Position numbers and translations under genes: made by a program
Shown here: positions 6,249-24,001 of the stretch, one piece after another
Position numbering within the stretch: the first letter of the stretch is position 1
Layout: every line of letters begins with the position of its first letter
Notes under the pieces: generated by a model
Told to the model about the DNA's origin: nothing
What the model saw: only the letters and a program-made list of their open reading frames with translations
Databases searched by the model: none
Assembly: GCA_963833505.1 (NCBI GenBank)
Contig: CAWHYG010000005.1
Span: forward strand, 318,918-382,917
Source of the DNA: Candidatus Eiseniibacteriota bacterium
GTDB taxonomy: Bacteria > Eisenbacteria > RBG-16-71-46 > CAIMUX01
Length of the DNA stretch: 64,000 bases
Direction of reading: 5' to 3'

Positions 6249-8504
6249 ATGACCGACTCCATCGGCCGCTACTCGGTAGTCCGCAAGCTGGGCGAAGGCG
6301 GCATGGGAATCGTCTACGCCGCCCGCGACGAGGCCCTGCAACGCCTCGTTGCGATCAAGGTCATCCGCGGGCCGGAAGACCCGCGAGGGCGCGAGCGCCT
6401 GGAACGCGAGGCCCGCCTCGCCGCCAGCGTCAACCATCCCAACGTCTGCCAGATCTACGAGGTCTCAAACCACCGGGACGACATCTTCATCGCCATGGAA
6501 ATGCTCGAGGGGGAATCGCTGGCAGTGAGAATTGCCTCCGGACCCATCCCACTTGATGAGACGATCGACATCGCCATTCAGATCCTCTCGGCGCTGGAGG
6601 CGCTCCACAGCCGTTCGATCGTTCATCGCGATCTCACGCCCGGGAATGTCTTTCTCACACCTCACGGAGTCAAACTGCTCGACTTCGGTCTGGCGCGATC
6701 GTCGGATCCCGGCCGCTCGGCAACCCGGACGGTGACGCAGGCCGGCACGATCGTGGGAACGCCCCGCTACATGCCGCCGGAACAATGCCGGGGCGAGGAG
6801 GTCGGGCCGAAGGGAGATCTCTTCTCCCTCGGCGTGATCCTCTTTGAAATGGTGACCGGACGCTCACTCTTCAGCGGAAAGTCGGTGGTCGACATCCTGC
6901 ACGCGGTCCTCAATGATCCGCCTCCACCGCTGGCCGGCGGGCCGGGGGTTCGAGCGCTGGACCTGGTCATCCAGCGAGCGGTCGAGAAGGCCCCGGAGAG
7001 ACGCTTTCCGGATGCGAAGAGCATGGCGGTCGCACTCAAGAACGTCCGCCCGCTGCTCGGTGGAGACGAATCTCCCCGCATTCGCTCGGTTCGGAGGCTG
7101 ATCGTCCTCCCATTTCGGATGCTCCGCCCCGACCCGGAGATCGACTTCCTTTCCTTCAGCCTTCCCGACGCCGTCACCCTCTCGCTTTCGGCGCTGGAAT
7201 CGCTGGTCGTGCGATCGAGCCACGCGGCCGCGGCCTTCGCCGGGCCGAATCCGGACATCCGGAAGATCGCCGAGGAGGCGGCGGTCGATCTCGTGCTCTG
7301 CGGCAACATCCTTCGATCCGCCGACACTCTCCGGGTGACGACCCAGCTCATCGAGGCGCCGGCCGGCACCTTGATCAGCTCCAAGGTGGTCCAGGCTTCC
7401 GTGACCGACATCTTCGAGCTTCAGGACCTGGTGACGCGCGAGATCGTGGAGGCGATGGCGATCCCGTTGACCCCGGGCGAACGCAGCGCCTGGCGCCGGG
7501 ACGCCCCCGCGAATCCCGCCGCCTACGAGCACTATCTCCGTGCCAATCAGCTCGCCCACAGCAACCGTCGTCTGGCGGACGCACGCGACCTCTATCTCGC
7601 CTGCCTTCGGGACGATCCCGGATTCGCCCCCGCCTGGGCCCGTCTGGGCCGCGTCTATCGCGTCATGGCGAAGTACGGCCATGGCGACAGCCAGGAGAAC
7701 TTCCGTCTGGCCGAGGAGGCGTTCCGGAAGGCGCTCGAGATCAACCCCGATCTGACCATGGCGCACAATTTATACACCTATCTGGAACTGGAAGAGCTGG
7801 GCCGCTCCCAGGAATCGCTTCTCCGCCTTCTGGAGCGCGTCCGCCAGGGAAGACAGGACGCGGAGCTCTATTCCGCGCTGGTGGTGGCGGCCCGGTTCGT
7901 GGGGTTGTACGAAGTCTCCCTCGCGGCCGACCGGCTGGCCCGCCGGCTGGATCCAGCGGTCCGAACCAGCGTGGCCCACACCTACTGGATGCTGGGAGAC
8001 TATGAACGGGCCATGCTGGCGGACGACGAGGACATGCGCTGGGTGTACAACTACTCGCTCCCCTTGATCGGCCGGGAGGCGGAGGCGGTTGTACGCTACC
8101 GGGATCTCGAGGAGGGCCGCCTCCCCGGGGTCGAGCGCTCCATCTCGACTGCCCTCCGAGCGGCCATCGAGGGCAAGCGAGAGGAGTGCGTGGCCGCAAC
8201 CCGCGAGGTGCTCGCCTCGAGATTCCACGACCCCGAAGGCCTCCTGCATGCGGCCCGGGCCCTGGCACACGCCAGCGCGGCCGATGACGCGCTCGACCTC
8301 CTGGCGCGGGTCGTAGGGGCCGGATTCTACTGCGGTCCGACCCTGATGCGGGATCCCTGGCTCGTTTCGGTCCGGAGTGATGCGCGGTTCACCCAGACTG
8401 TCCAGGCGGCGCTGGCCGGACAGCGGTCCGCGGCCGCGGCCTTTTCCCGGGCGGGCGGCGAGGCGATCTTGGGGGTGAGCGTCACGGATCCGGAAGGGGT
8501 TTGA
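6249..8504 (+). CDS. Cytoplasmic Hanks-type Ser/Thr kinase with TolB-N-like domain and TPR repeats
   Basis: GEGGMGIVY, VAIK, HRDLTPGN, DFGLAR, GTPRYMPPE; LIVLPF...DIFELQD (TolB-like); AYEHYLRA..DPGFAPAWARLG (TPR). No TM segment seen. Confidence 0.9.
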   Translation: MTDSIGRYSVVRKLGEGGMGIVYAARDEALQRLVAIKVIRGPEDPRGRERLEREARLAASVNHPNVCQIYEVSNHRDDIFIAMEMLEGESLAVRIASGPIPLDETIDIAIQILSALEALHSRSIVHRDLTPGNVFLTPHGVKLLDFGLARSSDPGRSATRTVTQAGTIVGTPRYMPPEQCRGEEVGPKGDLFSLGVILFEMVTGRSLFSGKSVVDILHAVLNDPPPPLAGGPGVRALDLVIQRAVEKAPERRFPDAKSMAVALKNVRPLLGGDESPRIRSVRRLIVLPFRMLRPDPEIDFLSFSLPDAVTLSLSALESLVVRSSHAAAAFAGPNPDIRKIAEEAAVDLVLCGNILRSADTLRVTTQLIEAPAGTLISSKVVQASVTDIFELQDLVTREIVEAMAIPLTPGERSAWRRDAPANPAAYEHYLRANQLAHSNRRLADARDLYLACLRDDPGFAPAWARLGRVYRVMAKYGHGDSQENFRLAEEAFRKALEINPDLTMAHNLYTYLELEELGRSQESLLRLLERVRQGRQDAELYSALVVAARFVGLYEVSLAADRLARRLDPAVRTSVAHTYWMLGDYERAMLADDEDMRWVYNYSLPLIGREAEAVVRYRDLEEGRLPGVERSISTALRAAIEGKREECVAATREVLASRFHDPEGLLHAARALAHASAADDALDLLARVVGAGFYCGPTLMRDPWLVSVRSDARFTQTVQAALAGQRSAAAAFSRAGGEAILGVSVTDPEGV

Positions 8505-8588: not shown

Positions 8589-10574
8589 TCAGGGATGGAT
8601 CATGATCGGGCGGTCCCGGAAGATCACCCGCCAGTCGAGAACCTCGTCGGCCATGAGCTGGGCGGTCGGGGCCACCAGGCCCGCGACCTGGCTCAGCCGA
8701 AGCGGATTCCGCTCGGGGTCGGCCGCCTCCCTCAGCTCCTTGATCTCGTGCAGGACATGCGCGAGTCGATCATGCATGGCCCGACATCGCTTGGACACGC
8801 GAGCGAACTCCCCCTGCTCATTGATCGCGGCGAGGGCCGCGCCCAACGCCGGCATGACGGCGCAGGCGACTGTGAGCCATCCTTCCCACCGGCCGGGAAG
8901 CGGTCGCGCGTGCAGGAGAACGGGTCGGAGATGGATCAGGATGCAGATCAAGATCGCGCCGACCAGGGCCAGCACGGTCACATCCAGGGTTTTCCGGATC
9001 CTCTCGTATCTCTCCAAGGTTCGGTGATGGAACGCGGCCTGCTCGCGCACGAGGCTCTCGAAATACCCCAGGCATTGATCCAGATGATTGTGATCGACCC
9101 TCGCCGTGGGGAGTCCGCACGCGCGCTCGACTGCGAGTTTGTGCCAGAACATCCAGGTCATGGAGGGATCGCCGTAGGCGCCGAGATAAGCCGGTTGCCG
9201 CGTCCGGGAGCGGGCGCCGCCCAGCGGGATCTGGAAGCGCATCTGACGGATCATTTCCGCCAGAGTCCGGTAGTCGATCCAGCCTGCATGCCAGCGCCGG
9301 ACGCGCGCCCAGATGAAGGCCAGCACGATTCCGAGCACCAGAACGAACTCACCTAGGTAGAAAATCGCGGGGCGGGGATCTCCCTCCCGGGGCCACCCGG
9401 CCGCTCCGGGAACCAGCACCAGGAAGACCGCCATCGCCGCCGCCAGATAGGCGTACACGAACGCGCTCCGGTAGGCGTCGGCGTGAAGGTCCGCGAGGCG
9501 GTCGGGCCAGGCGAAGTGCGCCCGAAGGCGCAGGTTCACCCAGCGGGCGATCGCCGGGATCTTGTCCGGCGGTTCGGTGGGCCAGCTTTCCCGAACCGTC
9601 TCCTCGATCGGCGGCACCCGGAGCGGCTGGATCGTGAGCTTCCCGGACCCGATGAGGTCCCGGAAGAACTTCCAGATGAACGCCAGATTCCACCCGGGCT
9701 TGTGCGCGCGCAGGTATCTCAAGTGAAGCCGGGTCTGCTCCCAGAGCCGTTTGGGGTCCGCGTGCTGTCCACGTTCGGGTGGCCACTCGATCATGCCGCG
9801 GACCACCTCCGCCAGTTCCGGACCCTTGGGTGCGCCGCTCGCATCCGGAGTCGCGCGTACCGCGGTCCGCAGGCTCGGAATCTCGTGGGTCGAGCGCAGA
9901 AGCCGCCAGGAATGAGGGCTCCACGCGTCGATCCAGACCACGGGCAGATGGGACCGCAGCGCCTCGTACATCGTTTCCACCGTGCCCCCGGAACCCTGGG
10001 CCTCGCCGCCGTCCCACACCACGATCAGCAGATCCGACTGGATCAGGACTACGCGGCCGGCCGCCCCGTAGGCCGCGCCGGCCTCTTCCCGACGACCGTC
10101 CAGCTCGAAGGTAACCAGTCCCGCTCCGGAACGGGCCTTCTCCAGGATCGCGCGAAACTCCCGGATGGATCCTTCCCCGCAGCATCGCAGGTCGGTGAAA
10201 TCCCTTTCGTACTCCTCCTTGGGAAAGGGCATAGGGCAGCAGAGGGCATAATCACGAGCCAGCGCCTCCTGCGCGAAGATCCGGTCCGTTCCTTCGGCCA
10301 GGGGAGAGATGGCTCGAAGCACCGGAGGATCTGGAGCGTAGTGTGGGCTGGCCTCTCCGTGGCAGGACTCCACCGTATCGTGCACGGTGGACAGCACCGA
10401 ACCGATGGTCGCGGCCAGCCTGCTGGGGTCGGCATGGAGAAGCCGGTTGGGCCGGTGTCCGACGATGCCCACGCGAAAGGCGAGGACCGGCGGTGGGGGC
10501 GTCGTCCAGACCCCAGGCTCGAGAGATTCCCGGACGGGCCTCACCGGAAGAACGGTCTGAGCGGCCTGGTGCAT
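8589..10574 (-). CDS. SLOG (YpsA-like) nucleotide-binding domain fused to two SLATT-like 2TM modules
   Basis: ATG at 10574 after GGGAGG. SLOG motifs VGIVGHRP, SPLAEGTD, SDLLIVVWDG..GSGGT. First TM pair followed by WHAGWIDYRTLAEMIR; second TM pair followed by PALGAALAAI..EF.R and EVLDWR. Confidence 0.8.
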   Translation of the reverse strand: MHQAAQTVLPVRPVRESLEPGVWTTPPPPVLAFRVGIVGHRPNRLLHADPSRLAATIGSVLSTVHDTVESCHGEASPHYAPDPPVLRAISPLAEGTDRIFAQEALARDYALCCPMPFPKEEYERDFTDLRCCGEGSIREFRAILEKARSGAGLVTFELDGRREEAGAAYGAAGRVVLIQSDLLIVVWDGGEAQGSGGTVETMYEALRSHLPVVWIDAWSPHSWRLLRSTHEIPSLRTAVRATPDASGAPKGPELAEVVRGMIEWPPERGQHADPKRLWEQTRLHLRYLRAHKPGWNLAFIWKFFRDLIGSGKLTIQPLRVPPIEETVRESWPTEPPDKIPAIARWVNLRLRAHFAWPDRLADLHADAYRSAFVYAYLAAAMAVFLVLVPGAAGWPREGDPRPAIFYLGEFVLVLGIVLAFIWARVRRWHAGWIDYRTLAEMIRQMRFQIPLGGARSRTRQPAYLGAYGDPSMTWMFWHKLAVERACGLPTARVDHNHLDQCLGYFESLVREQAAFHHRTLERYERIRKTLDVTVLALVGAILICILIHLRPVLLHARPLPGRWEGWLTVACAVMPALGAALAAINEQGEFARVSKRCRAMHDRLAHVLHEIKELREAADPERNPLRLSQVAGLVAPTAQLMADEVLDWRVIFRDRPIMIHP

Positions 10575-10630
10575 CGAAGAACCTCCCTGCCGTCGGCCCC
10601 GCCCGCCGATTGCCCGCTTCCGCAGGCCGG

Positions 10631-13600
10631 CTATATCCCGAATCCCAGGAAGGCGCCGTCGGCCCCGTATCGCCGCTTCTCGATCAACTCCCCGGTGCGA
10701 CCATAGGAAGCGGTCCACCGCGCACACGGATTCCGGTTCCTGATCTCCTTGCCTTCGACGTACACCAATCGGCCCTCTAGGTCGAAGTAAGCCTCTTCGA
10801 TCTGGTTTCCCCGGAGGTCGTATTTCTTGTCCACCCGGGCGTTGCCGTCGATGTGGTTGATGGGATTCCCATCCCGATCGAAGTACTCCCGGCGGATCTG
10901 TCGCCCCCATCGATCATAGGTGTCCCGCCACATCCAGTATCCCCATTTCATGCGGGTCGGCTGTTCGTCTTCATCGAAGAAGCGCCGCTCGATCAGATGC
11001 CCCCGGGAATCGAAGCGCTCGCGCAGCTCGGCGAATCCCTCATCGCCGCGCATGGGATGACCGGTCCGGTCGCACAGGAGGATCCGGATCGGATTTCCAC
11101 AGTGATCGTATTCCCGCTTGATTCCGAAGACCTCCTGGTCGCTCTTGGTGGGCTCGTCGTCCACATCGAAGTAGCGGACTTCCAGCTCATTTCCGTAGGC
11201 GTCGACCGTCGAGCGGCTCACGGGAACGGCTCCGACGGGCGGACCGCCATAAAGCCCGAGTCTACGGAGCAAGGTCTGGTACCCGAGAGCGTTGTACCCC
11301 ATCTCCTCCGACGCGTCTCCATCGGTCGAAAGCGCGGGCAGACCCAGGGGGTCGAAGTAGTCGTTTCGGGTTTCGTCCCCCAGGCTGTCATGGCTGACCA
11401 TGACATAGGAGTAACGGCGCGGACCCGTGCAGGGAGAACCTTCGGCGTCGAGATAACGGATCGAAAGCAGGCTTCCAAACTCATTGTATTCGTACCACTG
11501 CATCGCCCCGGGAGAGGTCACCGGATTGTTCAGTGAATCCAGGTAGACACATCCCAGCTCGCGGCCTCCTTCATCGTAGACGGACCGGCGGGTCACGTAA
11601 TTCCCGGCCGTCACCACGGGATGCCCGGCGCTATCGCAGTAGGTGCGCTCGACCTCGTTGCCGGCTGGGTCATACCTGCACCGATAGAGCGCAGAGCCGT
11701 CCTGCAGGATGAACGGATGTCCGGCCTCATCATAGAAACGCTTCTCCTTGCAGTTGCCCAGAGAGTCGAACCGACAGCGTTCAATGGTGTAGCCCGCCGA
11801 GGTCGGAGCGGGAGCGCCGGTCGTGTCCAGAAACGCCACCTCGACCTCGTTCCCTTGCCCGTCATACCTGGACCGGGTGCCTGAGTGATTGTCCGTGGTC
11901 GTCGTGATCGCGCCGGCGGTGTCATGGTGGATCACCTGGACCTTGTTTCCGTGACGGTCGAACTTCGCGGTCCAGGAGAAATAGCCATTGCGGTTCAAGG
12001 TCGGCCGACCATCGAGGTCGTATTGAGCAGCCCCGGTCCGATTGCCGTAGCGGTCGTACTCGAACGTCCGTCGAAACCATCCGTCCCGGGTGAGGGTCGG
12101 TCGGTCCTGATCATCGTAGGCCGTTTCCCCCAGGACCCACCCCTCTTTCGGGCTGAGCTTGATCCGATAGCGCGCGTTTCCATATCGATCCACCATGGGA
12201 TTCCCCCTGGAATCGAGGGACAGGCAGCTGACCTCGCGGCCCAGGGCATCATATTCACGACTCTGGCCGTAGGCGTGGTCGGGGCCGGGGCGCGGATGGC
12301 CCCTCCGGTCCGTATAGTCCCGGCGGATCTCGCGTCCGAGCGAATCGTAGGTGAAGGCGATGTACTGCGCGGACGAGGTGATCTGGGCCTGGGGAAAACC
12401 GGACGGCCCGACGAAGGTGGCGCGGGCGTGGAAACGGTCGGTTCGGGGCGCATAGATCATCCCGGAAATCAGATGCCCGACGCGATTGTATTGCTTCTCG
12501 TAGACGACCCGGCCGTTGTCGTCATGGACGAACTCCCAATCACATTCGTTCAGGGCAGGGTTGTCCTGGTCGGCGGGTTCGCGAAGAAAGGACTTGAGAT
12601 CGTGATCCGTGGTCAGAGCGCCCGAGCCGTTGACGGCCTGAACCCGAGTCACGGGGTGTTTGCGACCGGCGCGCACGAAACGGTAGGTAAAGGCGCGATG
12701 GCTCGCCTCCTCGCGGCTGATGCGGTTGATCCCGCGGGGAAGACCCCACTGGTAGTCGAATCTGGTGTAGTACTCGACATGCACCCGACTGTAGGTGTCG
12801 TAGTACCACCAGGCGCCGGCCAGAACCGCCAGCAGCGCGACCCCGGCGATGAGGGTGGCATGAAGGACGCCGCGCCAGAAGGCTTCGCGCTGGCGGATCA
12901 CCTCGCTATCCGGCAGGTTGGCCGTGATCCAGGCTCGATCGAAGACCCGCCGGTAGATCGGGTTTCGCAGCAGGTGGACGCCGGCCACCACGCGGGTGAT
13001 CCCGGAGAGGCGGAGCGCGGAATGCGCCGGGTCGGCGTCGTCGTTCGGCACCCGTCTTCCGCGCAGCACCTTGGCATAGAGGTCGAGCACGGCGGCGCGA
13101 TCGACCTCGCTCCGAAGAAGCCGTTCGCGGACGAAGGTGAGGTTGTCGTCGCGCTCCCGAGCTTGGGACGAAAGAAAGTGGGTTCGGCAGACCCGGTCGA
13201 CCCCGGCGTCGCCGGACACGGCGGGGTCCTCGGCCACCGCCTGGCAGAGCTGTTGGGTGAGATAGGGATGACCGCCGGTCCAATGGTGGATCCGGCGGAG
13301 TATCGCCCGCGCCTCCCGGTGCGGGCGGCCCAGACCGGGGGCCAGGATCTCCATCTCTGCCGGCGTGAAATCGTCCAGCTCGATTCTCCGGCCGACGTTG
13401 AAGGGGGTGGTGCGGGAGTCGCGAATCAGGTCCGACGGCGTCGTAACGCCGATCAGGCAGAAGGTGAGCCGGGCCAGCGGAGGCTCGTCCGCGCGCCGGT
13501 TGTAGATCTCGCGGATGGCCGCGAAGAACTCGTCCACCGCGAAGGGCAGACTCCGGACATAATCGATCTCGTCGATGAAGATGGCGATCCGACCGTCGAG

Positions 13601-13993
13601 CCGGGGCAAAATGGTTTCGTGCAGCACGCGGGTCCACCGCTGCAGAGGCGGGAGATCGCTGCCCGAGGTCCAGGCCTCTTCGACCTCGGTCTCCAGGTCA
13701 AACTGACGCCCGAGCCGCGAGAGGATCCCTTCATACCACTGTTCGGGCGTGAGGTTCTGGCCCAGGGAGGTGAGATCGACCACGGCGACGGCTGTTCCTT
13801 CGCCGCGAAGCCGCGTGGCCACGCGAACCATGAGCGAGCTCTTGCCCGACTGGCGGCTCGTCAGGACGTGGCAAAGCTCCCCGTGGGCCAGGGCGTCGTG
13901 CAGGATCATGTCGGCCTGTCGCGCAACGTAGCATGGAGCGTCGCGCGCCAGGGTTCCGCCCAGGACATAGAACGGACGCGCAGCTTCCGTCAT
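10631..13993 (-). CDS. AAA_35 P-loop NTPase, single TM helix, and ectodomain of about 18 YD-like ~32-aa repeats
   Basis: ATG at 13993 overlaps the upstream stop (ATGA). GGTL..YVAR.AD, Walker A TSRQSGKSS, Walker B IFIDEID, PFNVG, TGGHPYLTQ. TM GVLHATLIAGVALLAVLAGAWWYY. Repeats YDxxGNxxxxxYxDxxGxP. Confidence 0.85.
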   Translation of the reverse strand: MTEAARPFYVLGGTLARDAPCYVARQADMILHDALAHGELCHVLTSRQSGKSSLMVRVATRLRGEGTAVAVVDLTSLGQNLTPEQWYEGILSRLGRQFDLETEVEEAWTSGSDLPPLQRWTRVLHETILPRLDGRIAIFIDEIDYVRSLPFAVDEFFAAIREIYNRRADEPPLARLTFCLIGVTTPSDLIRDSRTTPFNVGRRIELDDFTPAEMEILAPGLGRPHREARAILRRIHHWTGGHPYLTQQLCQAVAEDPAVSGDAGVDRVCRTHFLSSQARERDDNLTFVRERLLRSEVDRAAVLDLYAKVLRGRRVPNDDADPAHSALRLSGITRVVAGVHLLRNPIYRRVFDRAWITANLPDSEVIRQREAFWRGVLHATLIAGVALLAVLAGAWWYYDTYSRVHVEYYTRFDYQWGLPRGINRISREEASHRAFTYRFVRAGRKHPVTRVQAVNGSGALTTDHDLKSFLREPADQDNPALNECDWEFVHDDNGRVVYEKQYNRVGHLISGMIYAPRTDRFHARATFVGPSGFPQAQITSSAQYIAFTYDSLGREIRRDYTDRRGHPRPGPDHAYGQSREYDALGREVSCLSLDSRGNPMVDRYGNARYRIKLSPKEGWVLGETAYDDQDRPTLTRDGWFRRTFEYDRYGNRTGAAQYDLDGRPTLNRNGYFSWTAKFDRHGNKVQVIHHDTAGAITTTTDNHSGTRSRYDGQGNEVEVAFLDTTGAPAPTSAGYTIERCRFDSLGNCKEKRFYDEAGHPFILQDGSALYRCRYDPAGNEVERTYCDSAGHPVVTAGNYVTRRSVYDEGGRELGCVYLDSLNNPVTSPGAMQWYEYNEFGSLLSIRYLDAEGSPCTGPRRYSYVMVSHDSLGDETRNDYFDPLGLPALSTDGDASEEMGYNALGYQTLLRRLGLYGGPPVGAVPVSRSTVDAYGNELEVRYFDVDDEPTKSDQEVFGIKREYDHCGNPIRILLCDRTGHPMRGDEGFAELRERFDSRGHLIERRFFDEDEQPTRMKWGYWMWRDTYDRWGRQIRREYFDRDGNPINHIDGNARVDKKYDLRGNQIEEAYFDLEGRLVYVEGKEIRNRNPCARWTASYGRTGELIEKRRYGADGAFLGFGI

Positions 13994-16002
13994 GACAAGT
14001 GACTCCGTAAATACGAAGCATAGGCCCGGCATCGCAGCCGGGCGTGGTCCCGATCGTTGCCGAGGATCACGCCTGAGCTCCGCAGTCGGTAGAAACTGTC
14101 GAAATCCGGGCAGGAGGCGCCGCGCAACAAGGCTCGGACCGCATCGCAGAGCGATGCGTCCTTCACCAGGAGAACGAGCATCCTCCGGAGATGATCGCCC
14201 AGAGGTCCGTCGTCCCGATCCGCCACCGTTTCGAACTGATCCAGCTTGAGGCCTCGACTCGAGATCTCGTTCAGGCTTCGACGAACGAGATAGGGCTGTC
14301 CCCCCACGATGTCGTAGAGGCGCTCGACTTCTCCGGCCGAGAGCGGCGAGCCGTATCGCCCGTTCAGATCCGACACCTGGTCCAGGGTGAAATCATCCAG
14401 GGCGACCCGCGTTCCGACGTTGAACGGGGATTGGTTCGGATCGCTGATGAACAGGTACGCTTCGGTGGCATAGGCGATGGCCAGAGTCAACCTGGACCAG
14501 GGTCCGGAAGGATCCAGCGCCCGCTCATTGTGCCAGGTCCGGAAGAGCGCGAACACCTGGCTACCGAACGGGCAACTGAACAGCCGGTCCACCTCGTCCA
14601 TGGCCCAGACCAGATGCCGTTGGGCTTCGGCGAGCACATTCCGACGGATGAACCGCTCGAAATTGCTGTTCGGTCCCCGGGCGGGGGTCCATCCTTCCCT
14701 GGGAGAGACCTCGAGGTCGAGTTGATCGGCCATCAGCTCGCCGAGAGCGATCAGGAAATTCTCGTGGGTTTCAAGCTGGACATTGGTGAGCTTCTGGTAG
14801 TCGCTGAACACCACCCTGCATCCGGCTTCCCGCGCCGTCTTGAGGCCCCGGGCCAGAAGCGAGGTCTTGCCCATCTGGCGGGCGCCTTTGATGAGGATGG
14901 TCGCGTCTCCGCGAAGCAGGGCGGTGTGAAACTCCCCGTCGGGCGGCCGCACGACATAGAAGGCGGAGTCGAGCGGCACGGCTCCTCCGGCCGCCTCGAG
15001 CTTCTCCCGGCGGGGGGCGAAGGAGGCGGGCGCGTTCAAGGCCTCGAGGATGGCCGAGACCAGCTTCTCGTCGTTCTCCGATCCCTCCCAGAGGAAGTAC
15101 TGGAGGTGACCGAGGCAGTTCTCGAGTTCCGGAGGAAGCGGGCCTTCGAAACCGATGCGGACCGGAAGGACTTTCGGCTTCCCCCCGCGCTGTTGCGCCG
15201 CTTCATTGGCGACCTGGACCTCATAGGCCAGCATCTCGCTTTTCACGGCATCGGGGGAGAGGAGAACAACGACCGCGTCCGCTTGTTGAACCTCCTCGAC
15301 GATCTGTTTCGCCCATTCGGTTCCGACGCTCAGGTGTCGATCGATGAAGACCCGGTGACCGCTGACGCGGAGACGGTTCTCGATCAGCCCCAGGAGGCGT
15401 TCGTCCGGATCGCAGTTGCGCTTGTAGAGCAGGACGGTCCTCTGGCAGCCAGGAGCAGGCCCGGACGGAGCCGGTTGATGCTTCGCCGCACCTGCCGGTT
15501 CGGGGAGCGGAGATCGACCGGCAAGAGACGGCGGGGTGGACAATCCTGGCGCCGCCGGCGCCCCGGACCCGGGCTGGCCATCCCGGTCGCGAGCGGACGC
15601 GGCCAGCATGACTTCCAGAGCTGTGATCATGGGCTCCAGGTAATGGTCCAGGGGTCCCCCGAACGCATCCAGCCACTGGGGCAGCGAGACGAAGAACTCC
15701 AGCTCCTTGCACGGCTGAACGTCCTCGAGACGCAAGATCAGCATGGGTTTCTCGTGGTGAAACGCGCGTTCGACCTCGCTGTGGACGAACTTCGAGGCGT
15801 TCGAGGCGCGCGAAAGGAGCAACAGGAAGGCGCGGCAGCTTGGTATGGCGTCCACCAGGGCTACGGAGTACTTCGTTCCGGGTGAAACGTCCCGGGGGGC
15901 CATCCAGCAGTCGATGCCCCGCGACTCGAGCGCGGAACTGATCGCGAGCGCGAACTTCATGTCCTCAGGGTTCGCGTAACTGATGAATATGGTCTTTGCC
16001 AT
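13990..16002 (-). CDS. TIR-TIR-AAA_35 protein
   Basis: TIR1 IFISYA..D..CW..D..G..AI..LLS..S.FVHSEVERA; Pro/Ala linker; TIR2 VFIDRHLSVGTEW..ADAVVVLLS..SEMLAYEV; AAA_35 GGAVPLDS.FYV.R, GARQMGKTSL, MDEVD, SPFNVG, GGQPYLVR. Confidence 0.9.
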   Translation of the reverse strand: MAKTIFISYANPEDMKFALAISSALESRGIDCWMAPRDVSPGTKYSVALVDAIPSCRAFLLLLSRASNASKFVHSEVERAFHHEKPMLILRLEDVQPCKELEFFVSLPQWLDAFGGPLDHYLEPMITALEVMLAASARDRDGQPGSGAPAAPGLSTPPSLAGRSPLPEPAGAAKHQPAPSGPAPGCQRTVLLYKRNCDPDERLLGLIENRLRVSGHRVFIDRHLSVGTEWAKQIVEEVQQADAVVVLLSPDAVKSEMLAYEVQVANEAAQQRGGKPKVLPVRIGFEGPLPPELENCLGHLQYFLWEGSENDEKLVSAILEALNAPASFAPRREKLEAAGGAVPLDSAFYVVRPPDGEFHTALLRGDATILIKGARQMGKTSLLARGLKTAREAGCRVVFSDYQKLTNVQLETHENFLIALGELMADQLDLEVSPREGWTPARGPNSNFERFIRRNVLAEAQRHLVWAMDEVDRLFSCPFGSQVFALFRTWHNERALDPSGPWSRLTLAIAYATEAYLFISDPNQSPFNVGTRVALDDFTLDQVSDLNGRYGSPLSAGEVERLYDIVGGQPYLVRRSLNEISSRGLKLDQFETVADRDDGPLGDHLRRMLVLLVKDASLCDAVRALLRGASCPDFDSFYRLRSSGVILGNDRDHARLRCRAYASYLRSHLS

Positions 16003-17378: not shown

Positions 17379-17756
17379 TCAGAGCTCCCATCCGAGCGCG
17401 AAAAAGGCGATCCATTGGGAAAGTCCGCTTACAGCGCCCTGAGACGCGACGAAATCGATCCGACCGGGGGAAGCTGCGGAAACGTGACCCAAGCCGATCT
17501 CGTCGCGAAGGTGCGGCGCGGGGTGGAACTCAAAGCCGACGTTCACGGCAAGGCCTCGCTCTCCCCGGACCGCCGTCTCGCGATACGTGTAGGAGACACG
17601 CCTTCCGGCAAGCTGGTAGTCCTCAGTGAGAAGCGATTCCCACCTGGACAGACAGAACACCGGGGCCAGGTCGAGGAACGGACGGGCGACCTCGGTTCCA
17701 GCCATCCAGGGATAGAACCGTGCTCCCGCGGACAGCGTGATGAAATCCGCGGTCAA
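17379..17756 (-). pseudogene. Possible C-terminal fragment of an outer-membrane beta-barrel protein
   Basis: Alternating beta-strand pattern (LSAGARFYP, VNVGFEFH, WIAFFALGWEL). In-frame stop directly upstream and no signal peptide. Confidence 0.3.
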
Positions 17757-17993
17757 TCAATCCTGGGCATCGGACGGGCTTTGATAATCCTGCTCGTCTC
17801 AGAAGCAATACGGAGCCACCCGGCAAGAGATTTGGATAATCTTTCTGTGCTTTCCGCACCTGCCGTTCGTTTATATTCCGTTCTCTGTTCCGGTTTAGGC
17901 GGTTCCATGGCGAAGTCTTGTTCGGCCGCCCGACGGAACCGTTTCCCTCAAATCGCAGAGTCGCTTCCCAGCACCCTATCGCGGAGGTTTTTC

Positions 17994-20471
17994 ATGCTGT
18001 GTTACCGAGGGATCGCGCGTGCCGGCCGGGCCCTGCCGGCGGTTCTCGCGATCGTCCTGCTCACGATTCTGCCAGGCCGGCCGGCTCTGGCCGCGGTTCC
18101 GAGACCCATGCTGACGGCGCCCTACCTCTCGTTCGATGTCGGCATGGCCCCCCAGGGGCTCGCGGTGGCCGACTTCAACGGAGACGGCGTGCCCGATGTC
18201 GCCCTGGCCGACCTGAACGGCAACACGATGACGGTGCTGCTCGGTAACGGCAACGGCACTCTGGGCTCCCGCACCGATCACCCGACCGGCAGTTATCCCA
18301 ACTACGTCGCGGCCGGGGATCTCAACGGCGACGGGCGGCCGGACGTGGTCGTGACCGACTATGGCAGTGACGCCGTGTCCGTCTTCCTGGGCAACGGTGA
18401 TGGCACGTTCTCTTCGGAGCATGAGTCCGCAGTGGGCACGAGCCCCTTTGGTGTGGTCATCGCCGATCTGAACGGGGATGGGCATCCGGACGTCGTGGTG
18501 GCCAATGGAGGCTCCGAGACCATGTCCGTGCTGCTCGGCAACGGCGATGGCACCTTCGCCCCGCAAACGGAGTACGCGACCGGCACCTACCCGAGCTCGG
18601 CGACCGTGGCCGACTTCAACTCCGACGGCATTCCCGACATCGCCGTGTCCGACTACTCCGATGGAACCATCTCCATCTTCTTCGGACACGGGGATGGGAC
18701 CTTTGCTCCGGCGACCAACATCGACGGCGGCGGCGAGCCTTGGTTCCTGGTCTCCGGCGATTTCAACGGCGACGGCAAGCCGGATCTGGCGGTGACCGAG
18801 GCCGGCGATGGCACGGTCGCGGTCATGCTCGGGCACGGCGACGGCACCTTCGCCGGCCGGGTCGAGTACGTCACGGGATCGGCGCCCTTCTCCGTGACCG
18901 TGACCGACGTCAACGGGGACGGCCACCCGGACCTGGTGGTGGGAGTCTGGAACGGCGCCGAGGTCGCGACTCTGTTGGGCCGCGGCGACGGCACCTTTGA
19001 TCCGGAACGGACATCCGCCTCGGGGGAGACTCCCGCGGCGGTCACCGCGGCGGACTTCAACAGCGATGGCAAGCTCGACCTGGTCATGACCGACCAGTAC
19101 ACCAACACTGTTTCCGTCCTCCTCGGGCACGGGGACGGATCCTTCGGCACGAACGCGGAGTTCTACGCCGGCCAGACGCCGGAGGCGATCGCCATCGGCG
19201 ACTTCAACCGGGACGCCCGTCCCGACCTGGCCACGGTTGACGCTGCCGCCGACTCGGCAATCGTGCTCCTCGGCGTGGGCAACGGCACCTTCGGTGGCCC
19301 CTCGTACAACGTGACCGGCGCCCGTCCGCGGGCGTTGGCCGTGGCCGACTTCAACGGCGACGGCAAGCTCGACCAGGTGGTAGCCAACTTCAGCTCCAAT
19401 ACCGTCTCGCTGCTGGCGGGCAACGGCGACGGCACTTTCTCCACGCACGTGGACAACGCGACCGGTGTGGGCCCGCGGGGCATCGCCGCGGGTGATCTCA
19501 ACGGGGACGGCAAGCCGGATTTGGCCGTGGCGGACATGGCCTCCAATACGGTTTCGATCCTGCTGAACAACGGCAGCGGCAGCTTCGCGCCCAAGGTCGA
19601 CTACGCCACCGGCGCCGGTCCCAGCGCCGTCGCGGCCGGCGACTTCAACGGCGACGGCAAGCTCGACCTCGCGGTGGCCGACTCGCTCTCGAACACCCTT
19701 TCGGTGCTGCTGGGCAACGGCAACGGGACCTTCCAGCCCAAGGTCGACTACGCCACCGGATCCGGTCCTTGCGCGGTGGTTGCCGGTGACTTCAACCGGG
19801 ACGGACACCTCGACCTGGCCGTGGCGTGCGCCGGATCGAACGCGGTTTCGATCCTGCTTGGCAGCGGCAACGGCACCTTCCAGCCCGAGGTCGAGTACGG
19901 CGTGAGCGCCGGGCCGCGCTCGATCGCTTGTGCCGACCTCGACGCCGACGGCGCGCTCGATCTGGTCGTGGCCAACTACGGATCCAAGTCGGTCACGGTG
20001 TTGTCGGGCAACGGCGACGGGACGTTCGGCGCCCGCTTGGACTATGGTGTGAACTACAACCCGGCCGGGGTCGCCATCGCCGACCTGGATGGAGACGGCA
20101 GGCCTGACTTGGCCGTGGCCAACGCCGGGGCCCACTCCGTCTCGGTGCTGCTGAACACCAGCCCGTCGGCGTCGGTAGCGGGCACCGCGCCGGCGGCGCG
20201 CAAGCTGACCGTGGCGCCGAACCCGTTCGCGGGAGCCGCGTCGCTCGAGTTCGAGGCGGCCGCGAACGCCCCGGTGACCCTGGAGATCTTCGACCTCTCC
20301 GGCCGGCTGACCCGCACGCTCGCCTCGGAAATGCGCCTCTCTGCCGGACCCCATTCGTTGATCTGGGACGGCCGCGACGCCGCGGGAGCAACAGTCGCCA
20401 ACGGGCTTTATGTCGCGCGTCTCTCCACGGGGGGACGGCAGGAGACGCGAAAGCTGATGCTGGCGAGATAG
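17994..20471 (+). CDS. Secreted FG-GAP/VCBS repeat protein with C-terminal FlgD-Ig/T9SS-like domain
   Basis: ATG at 17994 after CGGAGG; signal peptide; about 14 repeats of DFNGDGxxDLAV..VSVLLGNGDGTF; tail PNPF..IFDLSGRL..WDGRD..G..V.NGLY. Confidence 0.9.
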   Translation: MLCYRGIARAGRALPAVLAIVLLTILPGRPALAAVPRPMLTAPYLSFDVGMAPQGLAVADFNGDGVPDVALADLNGNTMTVLLGNGNGTLGSRTDHPTGSYPNYVAAGDLNGDGRPDVVVTDYGSDAVSVFLGNGDGTFSSEHESAVGTSPFGVVIADLNGDGHPDVVVANGGSETMSVLLGNGDGTFAPQTEYATGTYPSSATVADFNSDGIPDIAVSDYSDGTISIFFGHGDGTFAPATNIDGGGEPWFLVSGDFNGDGKPDLAVTEAGDGTVAVMLGHGDGTFAGRVEYVTGSAPFSVTVTDVNGDGHPDLVVGVWNGAEVATLLGRGDGTFDPERTSASGETPAAVTAADFNSDGKLDLVMTDQYTNTVSVLLGHGDGSFGTNAEFYAGQTPEAIAIGDFNRDARPDLATVDAAADSAIVLLGVGNGTFGGPSYNVTGARPRALAVADFNGDGKLDQVVANFSSNTVSLLAGNGDGTFSTHVDNATGVGPRGIAAGDLNGDGKPDLAVADMASNTVSILLNNGSGSFAPKVDYATGAGPSAVAAGDFNGDGKLDLAVADSLSNTLSVLLGNGNGTFQPKVDYATGSGPCAVVAGDFNRDGHLDLAVACAGSNAVSILLGSGNGTFQPEVEYGVSAGPRSIACADLDADGALDLVVANYGSKSVTVLSGNGDGTFGARLDYGVNYNPAGVAIADLDGDGRPDLAVANAGAHSVSVLLNTSPSASVAGTAPAARKLTVAPNPFAGAASLEFEAAANAPVTLEIFDLSGRLTRTLASEMRLSAGPHSLIWDGRDAAGATVANGLYVARLSTGGRQETRKLMLAR

Positions 20472-23213: not shown

Positions 23214-23296
23214 TGGTGTCACCTCCTTGATTCGCAACCGGAGACAACGGGATCGGACCCATGGACACTGGAATGTGTCACTCCAGACCGGCGGTA

Positions 23297-24001
23297 TTAT
23301 ACCACACAGCGTTTCAGGAAAGCCAGGGGCTTCCTTCGCCGGCCCCGCCACGTCCAGCTCACTCGATTGATCTGCCGGGCGTCGTCGTACCGGGTTTGCT
23401 GATCAATCGTCACCCGCGTCCCGTTCGGGAGCCGGAAACGGGACACTCCCCTCTGCAATTTGCGCCCTCGGACGATGACGTCGATGCTCGGGTTGAAGAC
23501 ATCGACGATGAAGCGGCCGCCCGGCTCGAGGTGCCGCCTGACCCCGGAGAAGACGTGTTCGAGATCCGCGAGCCGGTAGGTGTTCTGCAGGGAGTTGAAT
23601 GGGATGAAGATCAACTGGAATCGCGTCTTCAGCGAGAGCCGGCGCATGTCCTGGCGATGGAAGGGGATCTTGAGCCCAGCGGCGCGCGCCTTGGCCTTGG
23701 CATGGTCGAGCATGGAGCTCGCCAGATCGACCCCCGAGATGTCGATGCCGGCCTTGGCCAGCGGCACGGTCAGGCGGCCGGTGCCGCAGCAGAGCTCGAG
23801 CACCGGTCCGCGGGCGCGCCGGGCCTGGGCGAGATAGAAGGGCAGATCCCAGTCGAAGTCGTTGTCCGCGTCATACAGGGTGCCATCATGGACCAGCACG
23901 CCGACGCCGAAGTCGCCGCTGGCGCCGGGGGCCAGGCGGGGGCGCTTCGCAGCTCTGCGATTCGACGGGGTCTTCCTGGTGGTTCTCTTTGTCGCTGCCA
24001 T
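23297..24001 (-). CDS. Class I SAM-dependent methyltransferase, C-terminus probably truncated
   Basis: VLELCCGTGR, GVDLASSML, QDMR, LEPGGRFIVD. Ends abruptly after WTWRG. Confidence 0.75.
   Translation of the reverse strand: MAATKRTTRKTPSNRRAAKRPRLAPGASGDFGVGVLVHDGTLYDADNDFDWDLPFYLAQARRARGPVLELCCGTGRLTVPLAKAGIDISGVDLASSMLDHAKAKARAAGLKIPFHRQDMRRLSLKTRFQLIFIPFNSLQNTYRLADLEHVFSGVRRHLEPGGRFIVDVFNPSIDVIVRGRKLQRGVSRFRLPNGTRVTIDQQTRYDDARQINRVSWTWRGRRRKPLAFLKRCVV

What the first reader, a model, noticed from the sequence alone, without database searches (positions are those of the whole stretch)
8589..16002. Candidate new system: TIR-TIR-AAA_35 + AAA_35-TM-repeat receptor + SLOG-2xSLATT effector (surface-sensing, Thoeris-like operon)
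Seen: three co-oriented genes; genes 1 and 2 overlap by ATGA (13993-13990), and gene 3 starts 56 bp after gene 2 with a GGGAGG RBS. All three are intact in a window with many decayed genes. Known: bacterial TIR domains cleave NAD+ and can make ADPR-derived signals; in Thoeris the ThsA SLOG domain binds such a signal; SLATT 2TM domains are predicted membrane effectors associated with SLOG/SMODS; AAA_35 genes often occur as adjacent pairs, one with an effector and one with a repeat sensor. Inference: the ectodomain detects an outside or periplasmic cue, the two AAA_35 domains co-assemble and cluster the TIRs, and the TIR product opens the SLOG-gated 4TM protein. This would be a split Toll-like receptor wired to a second-messenger channel. 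I do not recognise this combination as a named system.
Basis: partly seen in the sequence, partly recalled or inferred. Interest (0 to 1): 0.92.

Follow-up and report, generated by a model that had tools for sequence, protein, structure and literature searches.

The report
Membrane-sensor TIR operon with SLATT effector
Three intact, tightly packed bacterial genes encode a membrane-anchored sensor, a partner protein with two TIR immune-signalling domains, and a four-helix membrane protein that probably answers the TIR product. This looks like an undescribed variant of Thoeris-type signalling whose trigger may be sensed outside the cell.

Summary
Three intact minus-strand genes lie at 16002..8589 with the stated ATGA overlap, 56-bp spacer and GGGAGG.

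- **Domains.** Pfam confirms TIR-TIR-AAA_35 (g1) and AAA_35 plus one TM helix plus a YD-like repeat tail (g2). In g3, DUF4231/SLATT is confirmed; "SLOG" is only weakly supported.
- **Two modules.** The operon joins two separately widespread modules.
  - (i) An AAA_35 A-then-B gene pair is adjacent in 68 of 80 metagenome loci. B has exactly one TM helix after AAA_35 in 60 of 69. A carries TIR, kinase, wHTH or cyclase outputs.
  - (ii) The g3 family has 870 50%-identity clusters at E<=1e-30. A TIR gene lies in its flanks in 46 of 80 genomic loci.
- **TIR types.** g1's TIR2 is the AAA_35-chassis type. Its TIR1 is the type found beside g3 homologues.
- **Recurrence.** The full triad recurs in L160, and in part in L179.
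- **Precedent.** TIR+SLATT is already described (Thoeris type VII, Shaseng), but those effectors are described without a SLOG.

Verdict: a new variant of a known kind. The mechanism is inferred, not shown.

The parts
13990..16002 (-). g1: TIR1-TIR2-AAA_35 (A-type) protein, 670 aa
   Evidence: Translation; Pfam. Walker A GKT at aa 373-380 and hhhhDE at aa 464-470. 46% identical over its full length to the L160 A protein.
15655..15990 (-). g1 TIR1 (aa 5-116), the TIR type found beside g3 homologues
   Evidence: Pfam TIR_2. The catalytic-Glu column is kept. All 26 of 26 phmmer-detected TIR domains in g3 loci are closer to TIR1 than to TIR2. In the tree it sits in a clade of 14 with 12 g3-neighbour TIRs, support 0.865.
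15010..15441 (-). g1 TIR2 (about aa 188-331), the chassis TIR of AAA_35 A-type proteins
   Evidence: Pfam TIR at aa 201-283; local HMM at aa 193-331. The Glu column is kept. 34 of 37 TIR domains in the AAA_35-pair loci are closer to TIR2. It sits in a clade of 30 with 29 A-type TIRs, support 0.871.
14005..14985 (-). g1 AAA_35 NTPase module (aa 340-666)
   Evidence: Pfam AAA_35, E 5.8e-69. 55-62% identical to 40 A-type modules.
13990..13993 (-). ATGA stop/start overlap of g1 and g2
   Evidence: Sequence. The same overlap is deduced in L160 from ORF coordinates.
10631..13993 (-). g2: AAA_35 (B-type), one TM helix, YD-like repeat tail, 1120 aa
   Evidence: Translation; Pfam AAA_35 E 2.7e-27. The N-terminal module matches more than 3665 proteins, about 60% identical among the closest.
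12878..13957 (-). g2 AAA_35 module plus conserved helical region (aa 13-372)
   Evidence: invariant GK51, D141-E142. The predicted interface with the g1 module touches aa 47-53 and 142-145.
12812..12868 (-). g2 single transmembrane helix (aa 376-394)
   Evidence: Kyte-Doolittle score 2.22; basic N-side flank. Exactly one TM helix after AAA_35 in 60 of 69 B-type relatives; N-side flank more positive in 58 of 66.
10634..12811 (-). g2 predicted extracytoplasmic YD/RHS-like repeat domain (aa 395-1120)
   Evidence: 20 [YF][DN]xxG motifs. RHS_repeat 18.3 bits, below cut-off. Homologous repeat tails occur in L112, L113, L122 and L081. The L081 copy scores RHS_repeat 26.2 bits, above the 22 cut-off.
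10582..10587 (-). GGGAGG ribosome-binding site of g3
   Evidence: Sequence.
8589..10574 (-). g3: Rossmannoid N-domain (SLOG-like) plus two 2-TM SLATT-like hairpins, 661 aa
   Evidence: Translation. 529 full-length homologues. 870 50%-identity clusters at E<=1e-30.
9870..10502 (-). g3 cytoplasmic N-domain (aa 25-235), putative ligand sensor
   Evidence: Invariant GHR, AEGxDR, D181, D188 and GGT motifs. No Pfam family. hhalign against DprA P=0.0043 and against TIR P=0.00036. Atlas leads to YpsA/DprA SLOG clusters at 0.82-0.86.
9312..9467 (-). g3 first TM hairpin (aa 370-421), DUF4231/SLATT
   Evidence: Pfam DUF4231 at aa 368-448, 27.6 bits against a 24.7 cut-off. Hydropathy.
8823..8990 (-). g3 second TM hairpin (aa 529-584), weak SLATT_1
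   Evidence: Hydropathy. Pfam SLATT_1 at aa 504-613, E 0.22 for this protein; 14 of 30 family members match at E<=1, best 0.001. NCBIfam SLATT_1 matches two stretches.

Best explanation
The operon is a three-part signalling or conflict module made by joining two widespread units.

**Sensor pair.** g2 is a single-pass membrane protein. Its AAA_35 NTPase module sits in the cytoplasm and its roughly 725-aa YD-like repeat domain sits outside. g1 is its soluble paralogous partner.

**Proposed steps (all inferred).**
1. Ligand binding by the g2 ectodomain drives NTP-dependent co-assembly of the two AAA_35 modules.
2. Assembly brings the g1 TIR domains together. Clustered TIR domains are the active NAD+-cleaving form in characterised TIR enzymes (established knowledge, recalled).
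3. The N-terminal TIR1, which is of the type that accompanies g3 homologues elsewhere, makes an ADP-ribose-derived product.
4. That product is read by the cytoplasmic Rossmannoid (SLOG-like) N-domain of g3.
5. The two SLATT-type hairpins of g3 then open or oligomerise in the inner membrane. The result is depolarisation, and growth arrest or death.

**What is shown.** Domain identities, gene packing, the A-B pairing rule, B topology by prediction, g3-TIR linkage, TIR1/TIR2 affiliation, recurrence of the triad, retained catalytic and Walker residues, and a predicted A-B interface.

**What is inferred.** The ligand, the TIR product, its binding to g3, pore opening, and the biological role (defence or other).
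For: - **Packing.** ATGA overlap, and a 56-bp spacer with GGGAGG.
- **A-B rule.** An A-type AAA_35 gene lies directly upstream, on the same strand, of a B-type gene in 68 of 80 loci fetched with the B module.
- **A-B fold.** ipSAE 0.65 against a best control of 0.00. That mark was reached by 58 of 80 solved complexes and 2 of 110 mismatched pairs. The runs share at least 86% of contacts, and the partner's pLDDT is at least 82.
- **B topology.** Exactly one TM helix in 60 of 69; N-side flank more positive in 58 of 66. A-type proteins have a TM helix in 2 of 59. B tails include families that, from recall, are typical of periplasmic proteins: PD40, FGE-sulfatase, CarboxypepD_reg, TonB_C.
- **g3-TIR linkage.**
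  - 46 of 80 loci have a TIR ORF in the flanks, and 34 of 80 have one within 600 bp.
  - Of the 51 loci with at least 3 kb on both sides, 32 have one.
  - 58 of the 61 ORFs scanned are Pfam TIR_2.
  - The window's own genome has only 2 TIR ORFs in 5.6 Mb.
- **TIR affiliation.** TIR1 is the g3-linked type (26 of 26). TIR2 is the chassis type (34 of 37). The TIR1 type appears in pair loci only in the three double-TIR proteins. The tree agrees.
- **Recurrence.**
  - L160 has a double-TIR A protein 46% identical to g1, the same ATGA overlap, a B protein 59% identical over AAA_35, and a g3-like gene about 20 bp after B.
  - L179 has a B gene followed by a g3-like gene with a weak SLATT_3 match.
- **Catalytic residues.** The Glu column is kept in both TIRs; Walker A and Walker B are kept in both NTPases.
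- **g3 N-domain relatives.** The same fold is also found fused to NUDIX and standing alone.
- **Precedent.** TIR+SLATT systems defend against phage and use cADPR (passages of bioRxiv 10.64898/2025.12.03.692087).
Against: - **The pair usually works without g3.** 78 of 80 AAA_35 pairs have no g3 homologue in the DNA fetched. Third genes vary: of 25 co-oriented downstream ORFs, only 2 are g3-like.
- **Double TIR without g3.** L139 has a double-TIR A protein but no g3 homologue within 10 kb.
- **g3 without TIR.** 19 of the 51 well-flanked g3 loci show no TIR gene. By my count from the rows, 16 of the 34 adjacent TIR genes lie on the opposite strand, so co-transcription is not the rule.
- **The sensor identity of the g3 N-domain is weak.**
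  - 0 of 30 members match a Pfam SLOG family, and there is no PDB hit.
  - hhalign against DprA gives P=0.0043 and probability 8%; against LOG P=0.37. The best score is to TIR, P=0.00036.
  - Atlas scores are below 0.9, which the tool calls leads only.
- **The A-B fold has a caveat.** Both chains are paralogous P-loop oligomerising modules, so the pass may reflect likeness to solved NTPase assemblies.
- **Defence is not established.**
  - By my count from the tally, about 9 of 116 non-TIR neighbours of g3 homologues match PADLOC models at E<=1e-8.
  - The window's neighbours are a kinase, a transposase and surface proteins.
  - A-type outputs such as Trans_reg_C (14 of 57) and cyclase (5 of 57) point to signalling in general.
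Confidence: 0.5

Rival explanations
1. The AAA_35 A-B pair is a complete two-gene system in which the TIR domains are terminal NAD+-depleting effectors. g3 is then a separate, merely adjacent membrane protein, or at most an auxiliary second killer.
For: - 78 of 80 A-B pairs lack g3, and third genes vary.
- TIRs fused to NTPase-repeat proteins are treated as NAD+-depleting effectors and were excluded from the Thoeris census. This is stated in section 5 of bioRxiv 10.64898/2025.12.03.692087.
- L139 has two TIRs without g3.
Against: - g3 follows g2 by 56 bp with its own strong RBS.
- The g3 family is TIR-linked in 46 of 80 loci.
- The extra TIR1 in g1 is precisely the g3-linked type.
- The arrangement recurs in L160.
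- The genome holds one copy each of g1, g2 and g3, and only one other TIR ORF.
Confidence: 0.2
2. The operon is an envelope or environment signal-transduction device, not an anti-phage suicide system. The external repeat domain reads a surface or periplasmic cue, and g3 is a reversibly gated ion channel tuned by a TIR-made messenger.
For: - The B tails are predicted to lie outside the cytoplasm.
- A-type outputs include Ser/Thr kinase (29 of 57), OmpR-type Trans_reg_C (14), BTAD (5) and cyclase (5).
- Known defence genes are few around g3 homologues: about 9 of 116.
- A TrkA_N plus RyR-domain membrane protein recurs beside g3 homologues in 9 loci.
Against: - The distribution is patchy. g3 is found in 5 of 41 relatives, own genome included. 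The B type is found in 2 of 206 genomes of the phylum, own genome included.
- An ISL3 transposase lies 3 kb away.
- CHAT, SIR2 and phospholipase neighbours occur.
Confidence: 0.2
3. The g3 N-domain is a divergent TIR-like adaptor. It is recruited to the clustered g1 TIRs by direct TIR-TIR type contact rather than by a diffusible small molecule.
For: - The best profile-profile score of the N-domain is to the local TIR alignment: P=0.00036, probability 37%, 76 columns.
- TIR, DrHyd and SLOG form one Rossmannoid assemblage (passage of bioRxiv 10.64898/2026.10.19.760177).
Against: - The match covers only the C-terminal half, and the TIR catalytic Glu aligns with a Thr.
- The motifs AEGxD and the Gly-rich GGT loop align in register with DprA motifs.
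- All ten best named Atlas clusters are YpsA/DprA SLOG families.
- The same domain is fused to NUDIX, which fits a nucleotide ligand.
- By my count from the rows, 16 of 34 adjacent TIR genes are on the opposite strand. The TIR partners also have very varied architectures.
Confidence: 0.1

Closest known systems
Thoeris type VII (TIR + SLATT effector ThsH; bioRxiv 10.64898/2025.12.03.692087) and Shaseng (bioRxiv 10.1101/2024.12.27.630466)
   Same: A TIR protein lies next to a SLATT-type 2-TM membrane effector. The TIR is the signal maker and the SLATT protein is the membrane-breaching effector. The signal is canonical cADPR in type VII (passages read).
   Different: - The passages read mention no SLOG in ThsH. 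The Shaseng preprint states that SLATT effectors lack SLOG and Macro domains.
- g3 has an extra 210-aa Rossmannoid N-domain and two 2-TM hairpins.
- The TIR here is fused to an AAA_35 NTPase that pairs with a membrane sensor.
- I could not compare sequences with ThsH or the Shaseng proteins, because supplements were closed.
- The figure listing further candidate effectors could not be seen either.
Thoeris type I (ThsB TIR + ThsA SIR2-SLOG) and type III (several TIRs + SLOG effector)
   Same: The logic is the same: a TIR-made ADPR isomer is read by a SLOG domain that switches on a fused effector (passage). g1 TIR1 weakly matches the ThsB/ThcB4 models.
   Different: - The effector module is a membrane SLATT pair, not SIR2.
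- The g3 N-domain matches no SLOG model.
- NCBIfam ThcB4 scores 40 bits against a 220-bit cut-off.
TIR-STAND / NLR-like bacterial proteins (Avs, bNACHT)
   Same: The order is output domain, P-loop NTPase, repeat sensor. TIR partners of g3 homologues often carry NB-ARC (6), nSTAND1 (4), AAA_16 (8), TPR and WD40.
   Different: - Here the NTPase is AAA_35.
- The sensor and the output sit on two paralogous chains.
- The sensor chain crosses the membrane.
- PADLOC does not match the NTPase parts.
Animal Toll-like receptors (analogy only)
   Same: The layout is an external repeat domain, one TM helix, and an intracellular TIR output that is activated by clustering.
   Different: - The TIR is on a separate chain joined through NTPase modules.
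- The repeats are YD-like, not LRR.
- The output is presumed to be enzymatic. No homology beyond the TIR domain is claimed.
TRPM2 channel, whose N-terminal SLOG-type domain binds ADP-ribose (recalled, not checked here)
   Same: A SLOG-type domain is fused to a membrane permeation module gated by an ADPR-type ligand.
   Different: The membrane modules are unrelated, and the SLOG assignment of g3 is itself uncertain.

Membership tests
Thoeris (generic) | TIR-domain protein with the catalytic glutamate | tested here: met
   Pfam TIR_2 and TIR. The Glu column is kept in both domains.
Thoeris (generic) | Effector gene conserved next to the TIR gene across genomes | tested here: met
   46 of 80 g3 loci have a TIR ORF in the flanks; 34 of 80 have one within 600 bp. 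58 of 61 are Pfam TIR_2.
Thoeris (generic) | Effector carries a domain that binds the TIR-made signal | tested here: inconclusive
   The N-domain has no Pfam or PDB match. hhalign against DprA gives P=0.0043. Atlas leads to SLOG clusters score 0.82-0.86.
Thoeris (generic) | Phage-triggered signal production and protection from phage | not testable with these tools
   This needs experiments.
Thoeris type I / III curated models | Match above cut-off to ThsA/ThsB/Thc models | tested here: not met
   NCBIfam ThcB4 scores 40 bits against a 220 cut-off. g3 has no Thoeris hit. PADLOC ThsB hits reach only E 3e-6 or weaker, and g2 and g3 have no hit.
Thoeris type VII / Shaseng | SLATT-domain membrane effector beside a TIR gene | tested here: met
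   DUF4231 scores 27.6 bits, above the 24.7 cut-off. SLATT_1 and SLATT_3 match 14 and 8 of 30 family members.
Thoeris type VII / Shaseng | Sequence relatedness to ThsH / Shaseng SLATT proteins | not tested
   Their sequences are in supplements that were closed.
SLOG superfamily (g3 N-domain) | Significant match to a SLOG family profile or fold | tested here: inconclusive
   0 of 30 members match in Pfam. The PF02481, PF06908 and PF18178 genome searches did not hit g3. hhalign gives DprA P=0.0043 and LOG P=0.37, while the DprA-LOG positive control gives 5e-7.
SLATT (Pfam clan of 2-TM effectors) | A 2-TM hairpin with flanking helices that matches a SLATT/DUF4231 model | tested here: met
   The first hairpin is above the Pfam cut-off. 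The second is weak (E 0.22; NCBIfam second stretch). hhalign of the two halves gives P=0.14, so it shows no duplication.
AAA_35 A-B pair (unnamed) | An A-type gene directly upstream of a B-type gene; B has one TM helix and a repeat tail | tested here: met
   68 of 80 loci; exactly one TM helix in 60 of 69. The window fits, and the fold supports contact.
RHS/YD repeat proteins (g2 tail) | Match to RHS_repeat / YD repeat models above cut-off | tested here: not met
   RHS_repeat scores 18.3 bits against a 22 cut-off. NCBIfam gives no hit. The homologous tail in L081 scores 26.2 bits.
STAND NTPases (NACHT / NB-ARC) | Match to NACHT, NB-ARC or nSTAND models | tested here: not met
   Only AAA_35, plus sub-threshold AAA_16, AAA_22 and ATPase_2.

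The most novel reading that the evidence does not exclude
The AAA_35 A-B pair is a widespread, so far undescribed class of bacterial transmembrane receptor. It reads a ligand outside the cytoplasm through a variable repeat ectodomain and passes the signal inward by NTPase hetero-assembly. In this operon the output is a TIR-made nucleotide messenger that gates a SLOG-like/SLATT membrane protein. That would be a true outside-in TIR pathway in bacteria, working like a split Toll-like receptor wired to a second-messenger-gated pore.
Probability: 0.25. Interest if true: 0.9.

Novelty: new variant of a known kind. Interest (0 to 1): 0.62.

Why it matters
- **Where the trigger is sensed.** As far as I recall and from the passages read, characterised bacterial TIR signalling (Thoeris) has the TIR protein detect phage inside the cell. 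Here the TIR output is bolted to a partner whose sensor domain is predicted to lie outside the cytoplasm. That would extend TIR signalling to extracytoplasmic cues.
- **An unrecognised effector family.** The g3 family has 870 50%-identity clusters at E<=1e-30, no Pfam model for its N-domain, and no PADLOC or NCBIfam name. It is a candidate TIR-linked effector class that joins a ThsA-like sensor idea to a SLATT pore.
- **A large unstudied two-gene chassis.** The A-B AAA_35 pair, with interchangeable outputs (TIR, kinase, wHTH, cyclase, CHAT), is abundant. My searches for PF14516, 'AAA_35', 'AAA-like domain'+'TIR domain' and 'DUF4231'+'TIR' turned up no description of it.
- **A precise genetic handle.** The split of g1's two TIRs into a chassis type and a g3-cognate type allows the model to be tested by mutating TIR1 against TIR2.

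Tried and rejected
- **Structure.** Structure prediction of g3 was switched off, so no fold search was run.
- **PDB.** A profile search of PDB sequences with the g3 family gave only chance-level hits, E>=0.19.
- **SLOG families for comparison.** Searches for YpsA (PF06908) and PF18178 in the phylum's 206 genomes found nothing to build comparison alignments from. PF18178 rang in no control genome either. The LOG comparison was negative, P 0.2-0.37.
- **Internal duplication of g3.** hhalign of the two g3 membrane halves gave P=0.14.
- **Promoters and terminators.** The scan found 0 promoter-like sites and no minus-strand terminator between the genes. This is uninformative for this organism.
- **Expression.** No RNA holder was listed for the stretch, so co-transcription is untested.
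- **Defence-island signal.** Around g3 homologues it was weak: about 9 of 116 neighbours by my count.
- **Housekeeping neighbours.** RsmB, IMPDH and beta-lactamase beside g3 homologues in Caulobacteraceae-labelled MAG loci looked like shared synteny, so I set them aside.
- **First metagenome scan.** The scan with g2 alone found no relative. The permitted second scan used an alignment.
- **Literature.** The 'AAA_35' search matched unrelated accession-like strings. Burroughs et al. 2015, which defined SLATT and SLOG, is not held, so what I say of it is recalled. The supplements of the Thoeris census, which list all candidate effectors, were closed. The g3 family may therefore already be among its 29 types.

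Full report
**Observation.** The region 8589-16002 holds three co-oriented minus-strand ORFs with no internal stop: g1 at 16002..13990 (670 aa), g2 at 13993..10631 (1120 aa) and g3 at 10574..8589 (661 aa). The g1 stop and the g2 start overlap as ATGA at 13993-13990. g3 starts 56 bp after the g2 stop, and GGGAGG lies 7 nt upstream of its ATG. Contigs of one public run bridge both junctions without a difference, though that run may be the sample of origin. I did not check the remark about decayed genes elsewhere in the window.

**Domains of g1 and g2.** g1 is TIR_2 (aa 5-116, E 8e-38), a second TIR (aa 201-283, E 1e-13) and AAA_35 (aa 340-666, E 6e-69). Both TIRs keep the conserved catalytic-Glu column, and g1 has Walker A GKT and an hhhhDE Walker B. 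g2 starts with AAA_35 (E 3e-27) with GKS and DE motifs. It then has one hydrophobic helix (aa 376-394) with a basic N-side flank, and a 725-aa tail with 20 [YF][DN]xxG motifs. Pfam RHS_repeat is below cut-off for that tail (18.3 against 22 bits). A homologous tail in L081 is above it (26.2 bits).

**Domains of g3.**
- It has four hydrophobic helices in two hairpins: aa 370-388/403-421 and aa 529-547/566-584.
- The first hairpin matches DUF4231 above cut-off. The second matches SLATT_1 only weakly.
- The 210-aa N-domain has invariant GHR, AEGxDR, D181, D188 and GGT motifs but no Pfam family in any of 30 members.
- It has no PDB sequence relative, and no Pfam family in 106 shorter relatives.

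**Is the g3 N-domain a SLOG?**
- Profile-profile comparison with a DprA alignment gives P=0.0043 over 102 columns. AEGxD aligns on the DprA GxD motif, and the strand plus GGT loop aligns on the DprA strand plus SG loop.
- The comparison with LOG is negative (P=0.37). The DprA-LOG positive control gives 5e-7. Negative controls against membrane segments give 0.06-0.6.
- The best score is to my TIR alignment (P=0.00036), but only over the C-terminal half, and the TIR Glu aligns on a Thr.
- For the homologue P0038, all ten best named ESM-Atlas clusters are YpsA/DprA/cpYpsA SLOG families. Their scores are 0.82-0.86, which the tool calls leads only.
- The same fold is also seen standing alone and fused to NUDIX.
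- I read it as a member of the TIR/DrHyd/SLOG Rossmannoid assemblage, most likely SLOG-like (about 0.7). This is not shown.

**The g3 family and its neighbours.**
- Size. g3 has 529 homologues in the word-indexed search; the 120 listed are 38-61% identical over 90-100% of the query. It has 870, 2815 and 5357 50%-identity clusters at E<=1e-30, 1e-10 and 1e-3. It has 391 places in species genomes.
- TIR in the flanks. In the 80 loci kept, a locally built TIR HMM finds a TIR ORF in the flanks of 46, and within 600 bp in 34. Among the 51 loci with at least 3 kb on both sides the figures are 32 anywhere, 28 within 3 kb and 21 within 600 bp.
- Confirmation. Pfam confirms TIR_2 in 58 of the 61 ORFs scanned.
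- Background. The window's own genome has only two TIR ORFs in 5.6 Mb, one of which is g1.
- Partner architectures. The TIR partners vary: TPR (13), AAA_16 (8), NB-ARC (6), SIR2_2 (5), nSTAND1 (4), WD40/PD40 and cyclase.
- Orientation. By my count from the rows, 16 of the 34 adjacent TIR genes lie on the opposite strand.
- Exceptions. 19 of the 51 well-flanked loci show no TIR gene.
- AAA_35 near a g3 homologue occurs in only one of the 80 loci (L078).

**The AAA_35 pair.**
- The N-module of g2 is a very large family: more than 3665 hits, about 60% identical among the closest. The C-terminal tails vary: TPR, WD40, PD40, FGE-sulfatase, CarboxypepD_reg, Sel1, RHS.
- In 80 metagenome loci fetched with it, a gene whose AAA_35 is g1-like (A type, E about 1e-120 to 1e-139) lies directly upstream on the same strand in 68. 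Most of the other loci are cut at the contig end.
- B-type proteins have exactly one predicted TM helix after AAA_35 in 60 of 69. The N-side flank is more positive in 58 of 66. A-types have a TM helix in 2 of 59.
- The N-terminal parts of 57 A-types carry TIR_2 (32), Pkinase (29, mostly together with TIR), Trans_reg_C (14), BTAD (5), cyclase (5) and CHAT (1).
- Folding the two window modules together gives ipSAE 0.65 against a best control of 0.00. That mark was reached by 58 of 80 solved complexes and 2 of 110 mismatched pairs. Contact agreement is at least 86%, and the partner's pLDDT is at least 82.
- The interface puts conserved g1 residues 441-446 and 485-494 onto the P-loop region of g2. 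Both chains are paralogous oligomerising NTPase modules, so the pass may owe something to likeness with solved assemblies.

**How the two modules meet.**
- g3 homologues follow the A-B pair in only 2 of 80 loci.
- L160 repeats the window closely. Its A protein has two TIRs and is 46% identical to g1 over the full length. It has the same ATGA overlap. Its B protein is 59% identical over AAA_35 with one TM helix. A g3-like gene starts about 20 bp after B and is cut by the contig end.
- L179 has a B gene followed by a g3-like protein with weak SLATT_3/DUF4231 matches.
- The two TIRs of g1 have different kin. Of 37 TIR domains in the pair loci, 34 are closer to TIR2. All 26 TIR domains that phmmer detects in the g3 loci are closer to TIR1.
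- TIR1-type domains occur in pair loci only as the extra N-terminal TIR of L122 (contig cut), L139 (no g3 within 10 kb) and L160 (g3 present).
- A FastTree of 98 TIR domains agrees. TIR1 sits in a clade of 14 with 12 g3-neighbour TIRs (support 0.865). TIR2 sits in a clade of 30 with 29 A-type TIRs and no g3-neighbour TIR (0.871).
- So g1 looks like a TIR2-AAA_35 chassis that has acquired the g3-cognate TIR.

**Distribution and context.**
- The genome has one copy each of g1, g2 and g3.
- g3 homologues occur in 5 of 41 relatives, counting the window's own genome. The B type occurs in 2 of 206 genomes of the phylum, counting the window's own. The other genome, G022, also has an A-like gene beside it.
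- The window's neighbours are a convergent Ser/Thr kinase-TPR gene, an ISL3 transposase and FG-GAP/FlgD_ig surface proteins. This is not an obvious defence island.
- PADLOC names nothing for g2 or g3.

**Mechanism.** The most likely course, at about 0.5 overall, runs as follows.
1. The g2 ectodomain binds a cue outside the cytoplasm.
2. The g1 and g2 AAA_35 modules co-assemble with NTP.
3. The g1 TIRs cluster, and TIR1 converts NAD+ into an ADPR-type messenger.
4. The g3 N-domain binds that messenger.
5. The SLATT hairpins breach or gate the membrane.

Only the anatomy, the linkage statistics and the predicted contact are shown. All chemistry and physiology is inferred. The rivals are: the TIRs as terminal NADases with g3 incidental (0.2), a non-lethal envelope-signalling device (0.2), and direct TIR-like adaptor recruitment of g3 (0.1).

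**Comparison with what is known.**
- TIR plus SLATT is described as Thoeris type VII, with cADPR as signal. I read passages and section 5 of bioRxiv 10.64898/2025.12.03.692087. It is also described as Shaseng; I read passages of bioRxiv 10.1101/2024.12.27.630466. The latter says SLATT effectors lack SLOG and Macro domains.
- The census paper removed TIRs in Avs-type proteins, so NTPase-fused TIRs like g1 may have been outside its scope. Its supplements and figures could not be seen, so g3 may still be among its 29 effector types.
- TIR-SLATT neighbourhoods were also noted computationally (passages of PMC7159879 and PMC9503650). The name SLATT itself records an association with SLOG (Pfam description; Burroughs 2015 recalled, not held).
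- I found no paper naming PF14516, none with DUF4231 plus TIR, and one unrelated genome paper with 'AAA-like domain' plus 'TIR domain'.

**Verdict.** The finding is real and the reading is partly right. It is a new variant of a known kind: Thoeris-like TIR signalling to a SLATT effector. Two features I did not find described are an effector that adds a SLOG-like sensor and a second hairpin, and a TIR generator mounted on a transmembrane AAA_35 sensor pair.

Noticed in passing
L025:11921-13741, L081:5296-7206, L073:8102-9913 (also L011, L036, L056, L072, L082, L086): A membrane-anchored protein of about 600 aa with TrkA_N and RyR domains recurs beside g3 homologues in 9 of 80 loci. In L081 the order is repeat protein, g3, TIR, TrkA_N-RyR. 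It is not found in the window's own genome or in the AAA_35-pair loci.
   Followed up: partly
window 6249-8504 (+): A Ser/Thr kinase-TPR gene lies convergent to g3 and ends 85 bp from its stop. Its kinase domain is about 40% identical (E about 1e-58) to the kinase domains fused to TIR-AAA_35 in A-type relatives. It could be a detached module, or just a generic kinase.
   Followed up: partly
window 4302-5564 (-): An intact ISL3-family transposase (DDE_Tnp_ISL3, E 9e-77) lies 3 kb from the operon.
   Followed up: no
L112-L191 (A-type genes): The A partner of the AAA_35 pair swaps its N-terminal output: Pkinase (29 of 57), TIR_2 (32), Trans_reg_C (14), BTAD (5), cyclase (5), CHAT (1). Pkinase-TIR-AAA_35 is the common TIR form, and TIR-TIR-AAA_35 is rare.
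   Followed up: partly
homologue P0038, residues 5-215 (ESM Atlas): The g3 N-domain fold also occurs as stand-alone proteins of 240-290 aa and fused to a NUDIX hydrolase (a cluster of 60 members). This hints at an ADP-ribose-type ligand.
   Followed up: no
L078:2898-9502: Near a g3 homologue in a Pyrinomonadaceae-labelled MAG locus lies a TIR-AAA_35 gene. It is followed by an AAA_35 protein fused to asparaginase domains, a second asparaginase, and an Asp/Glu racemase-like gene.
   Followed up: no
g1 aa 441-446 and 485-494 against g2 aa 47-53 and 142-145: In the predicted A-B complex, conserved basic and aromatic residues of g1 (R442, R488, R494 and W490 are invariant or near-invariant) sit on the g2 P-loop and Walker B region, as a trans-acting finger would.
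   Followed up: no
window 17415-20471 (+), 20721-23351 (-), 25754-28468 (+): Several large FG-GAP or beta-propeller proteins end in a FlgD_ig-like domain. They are likely secreted surface proteins and are unrelated to the finding.
   Followed up: no
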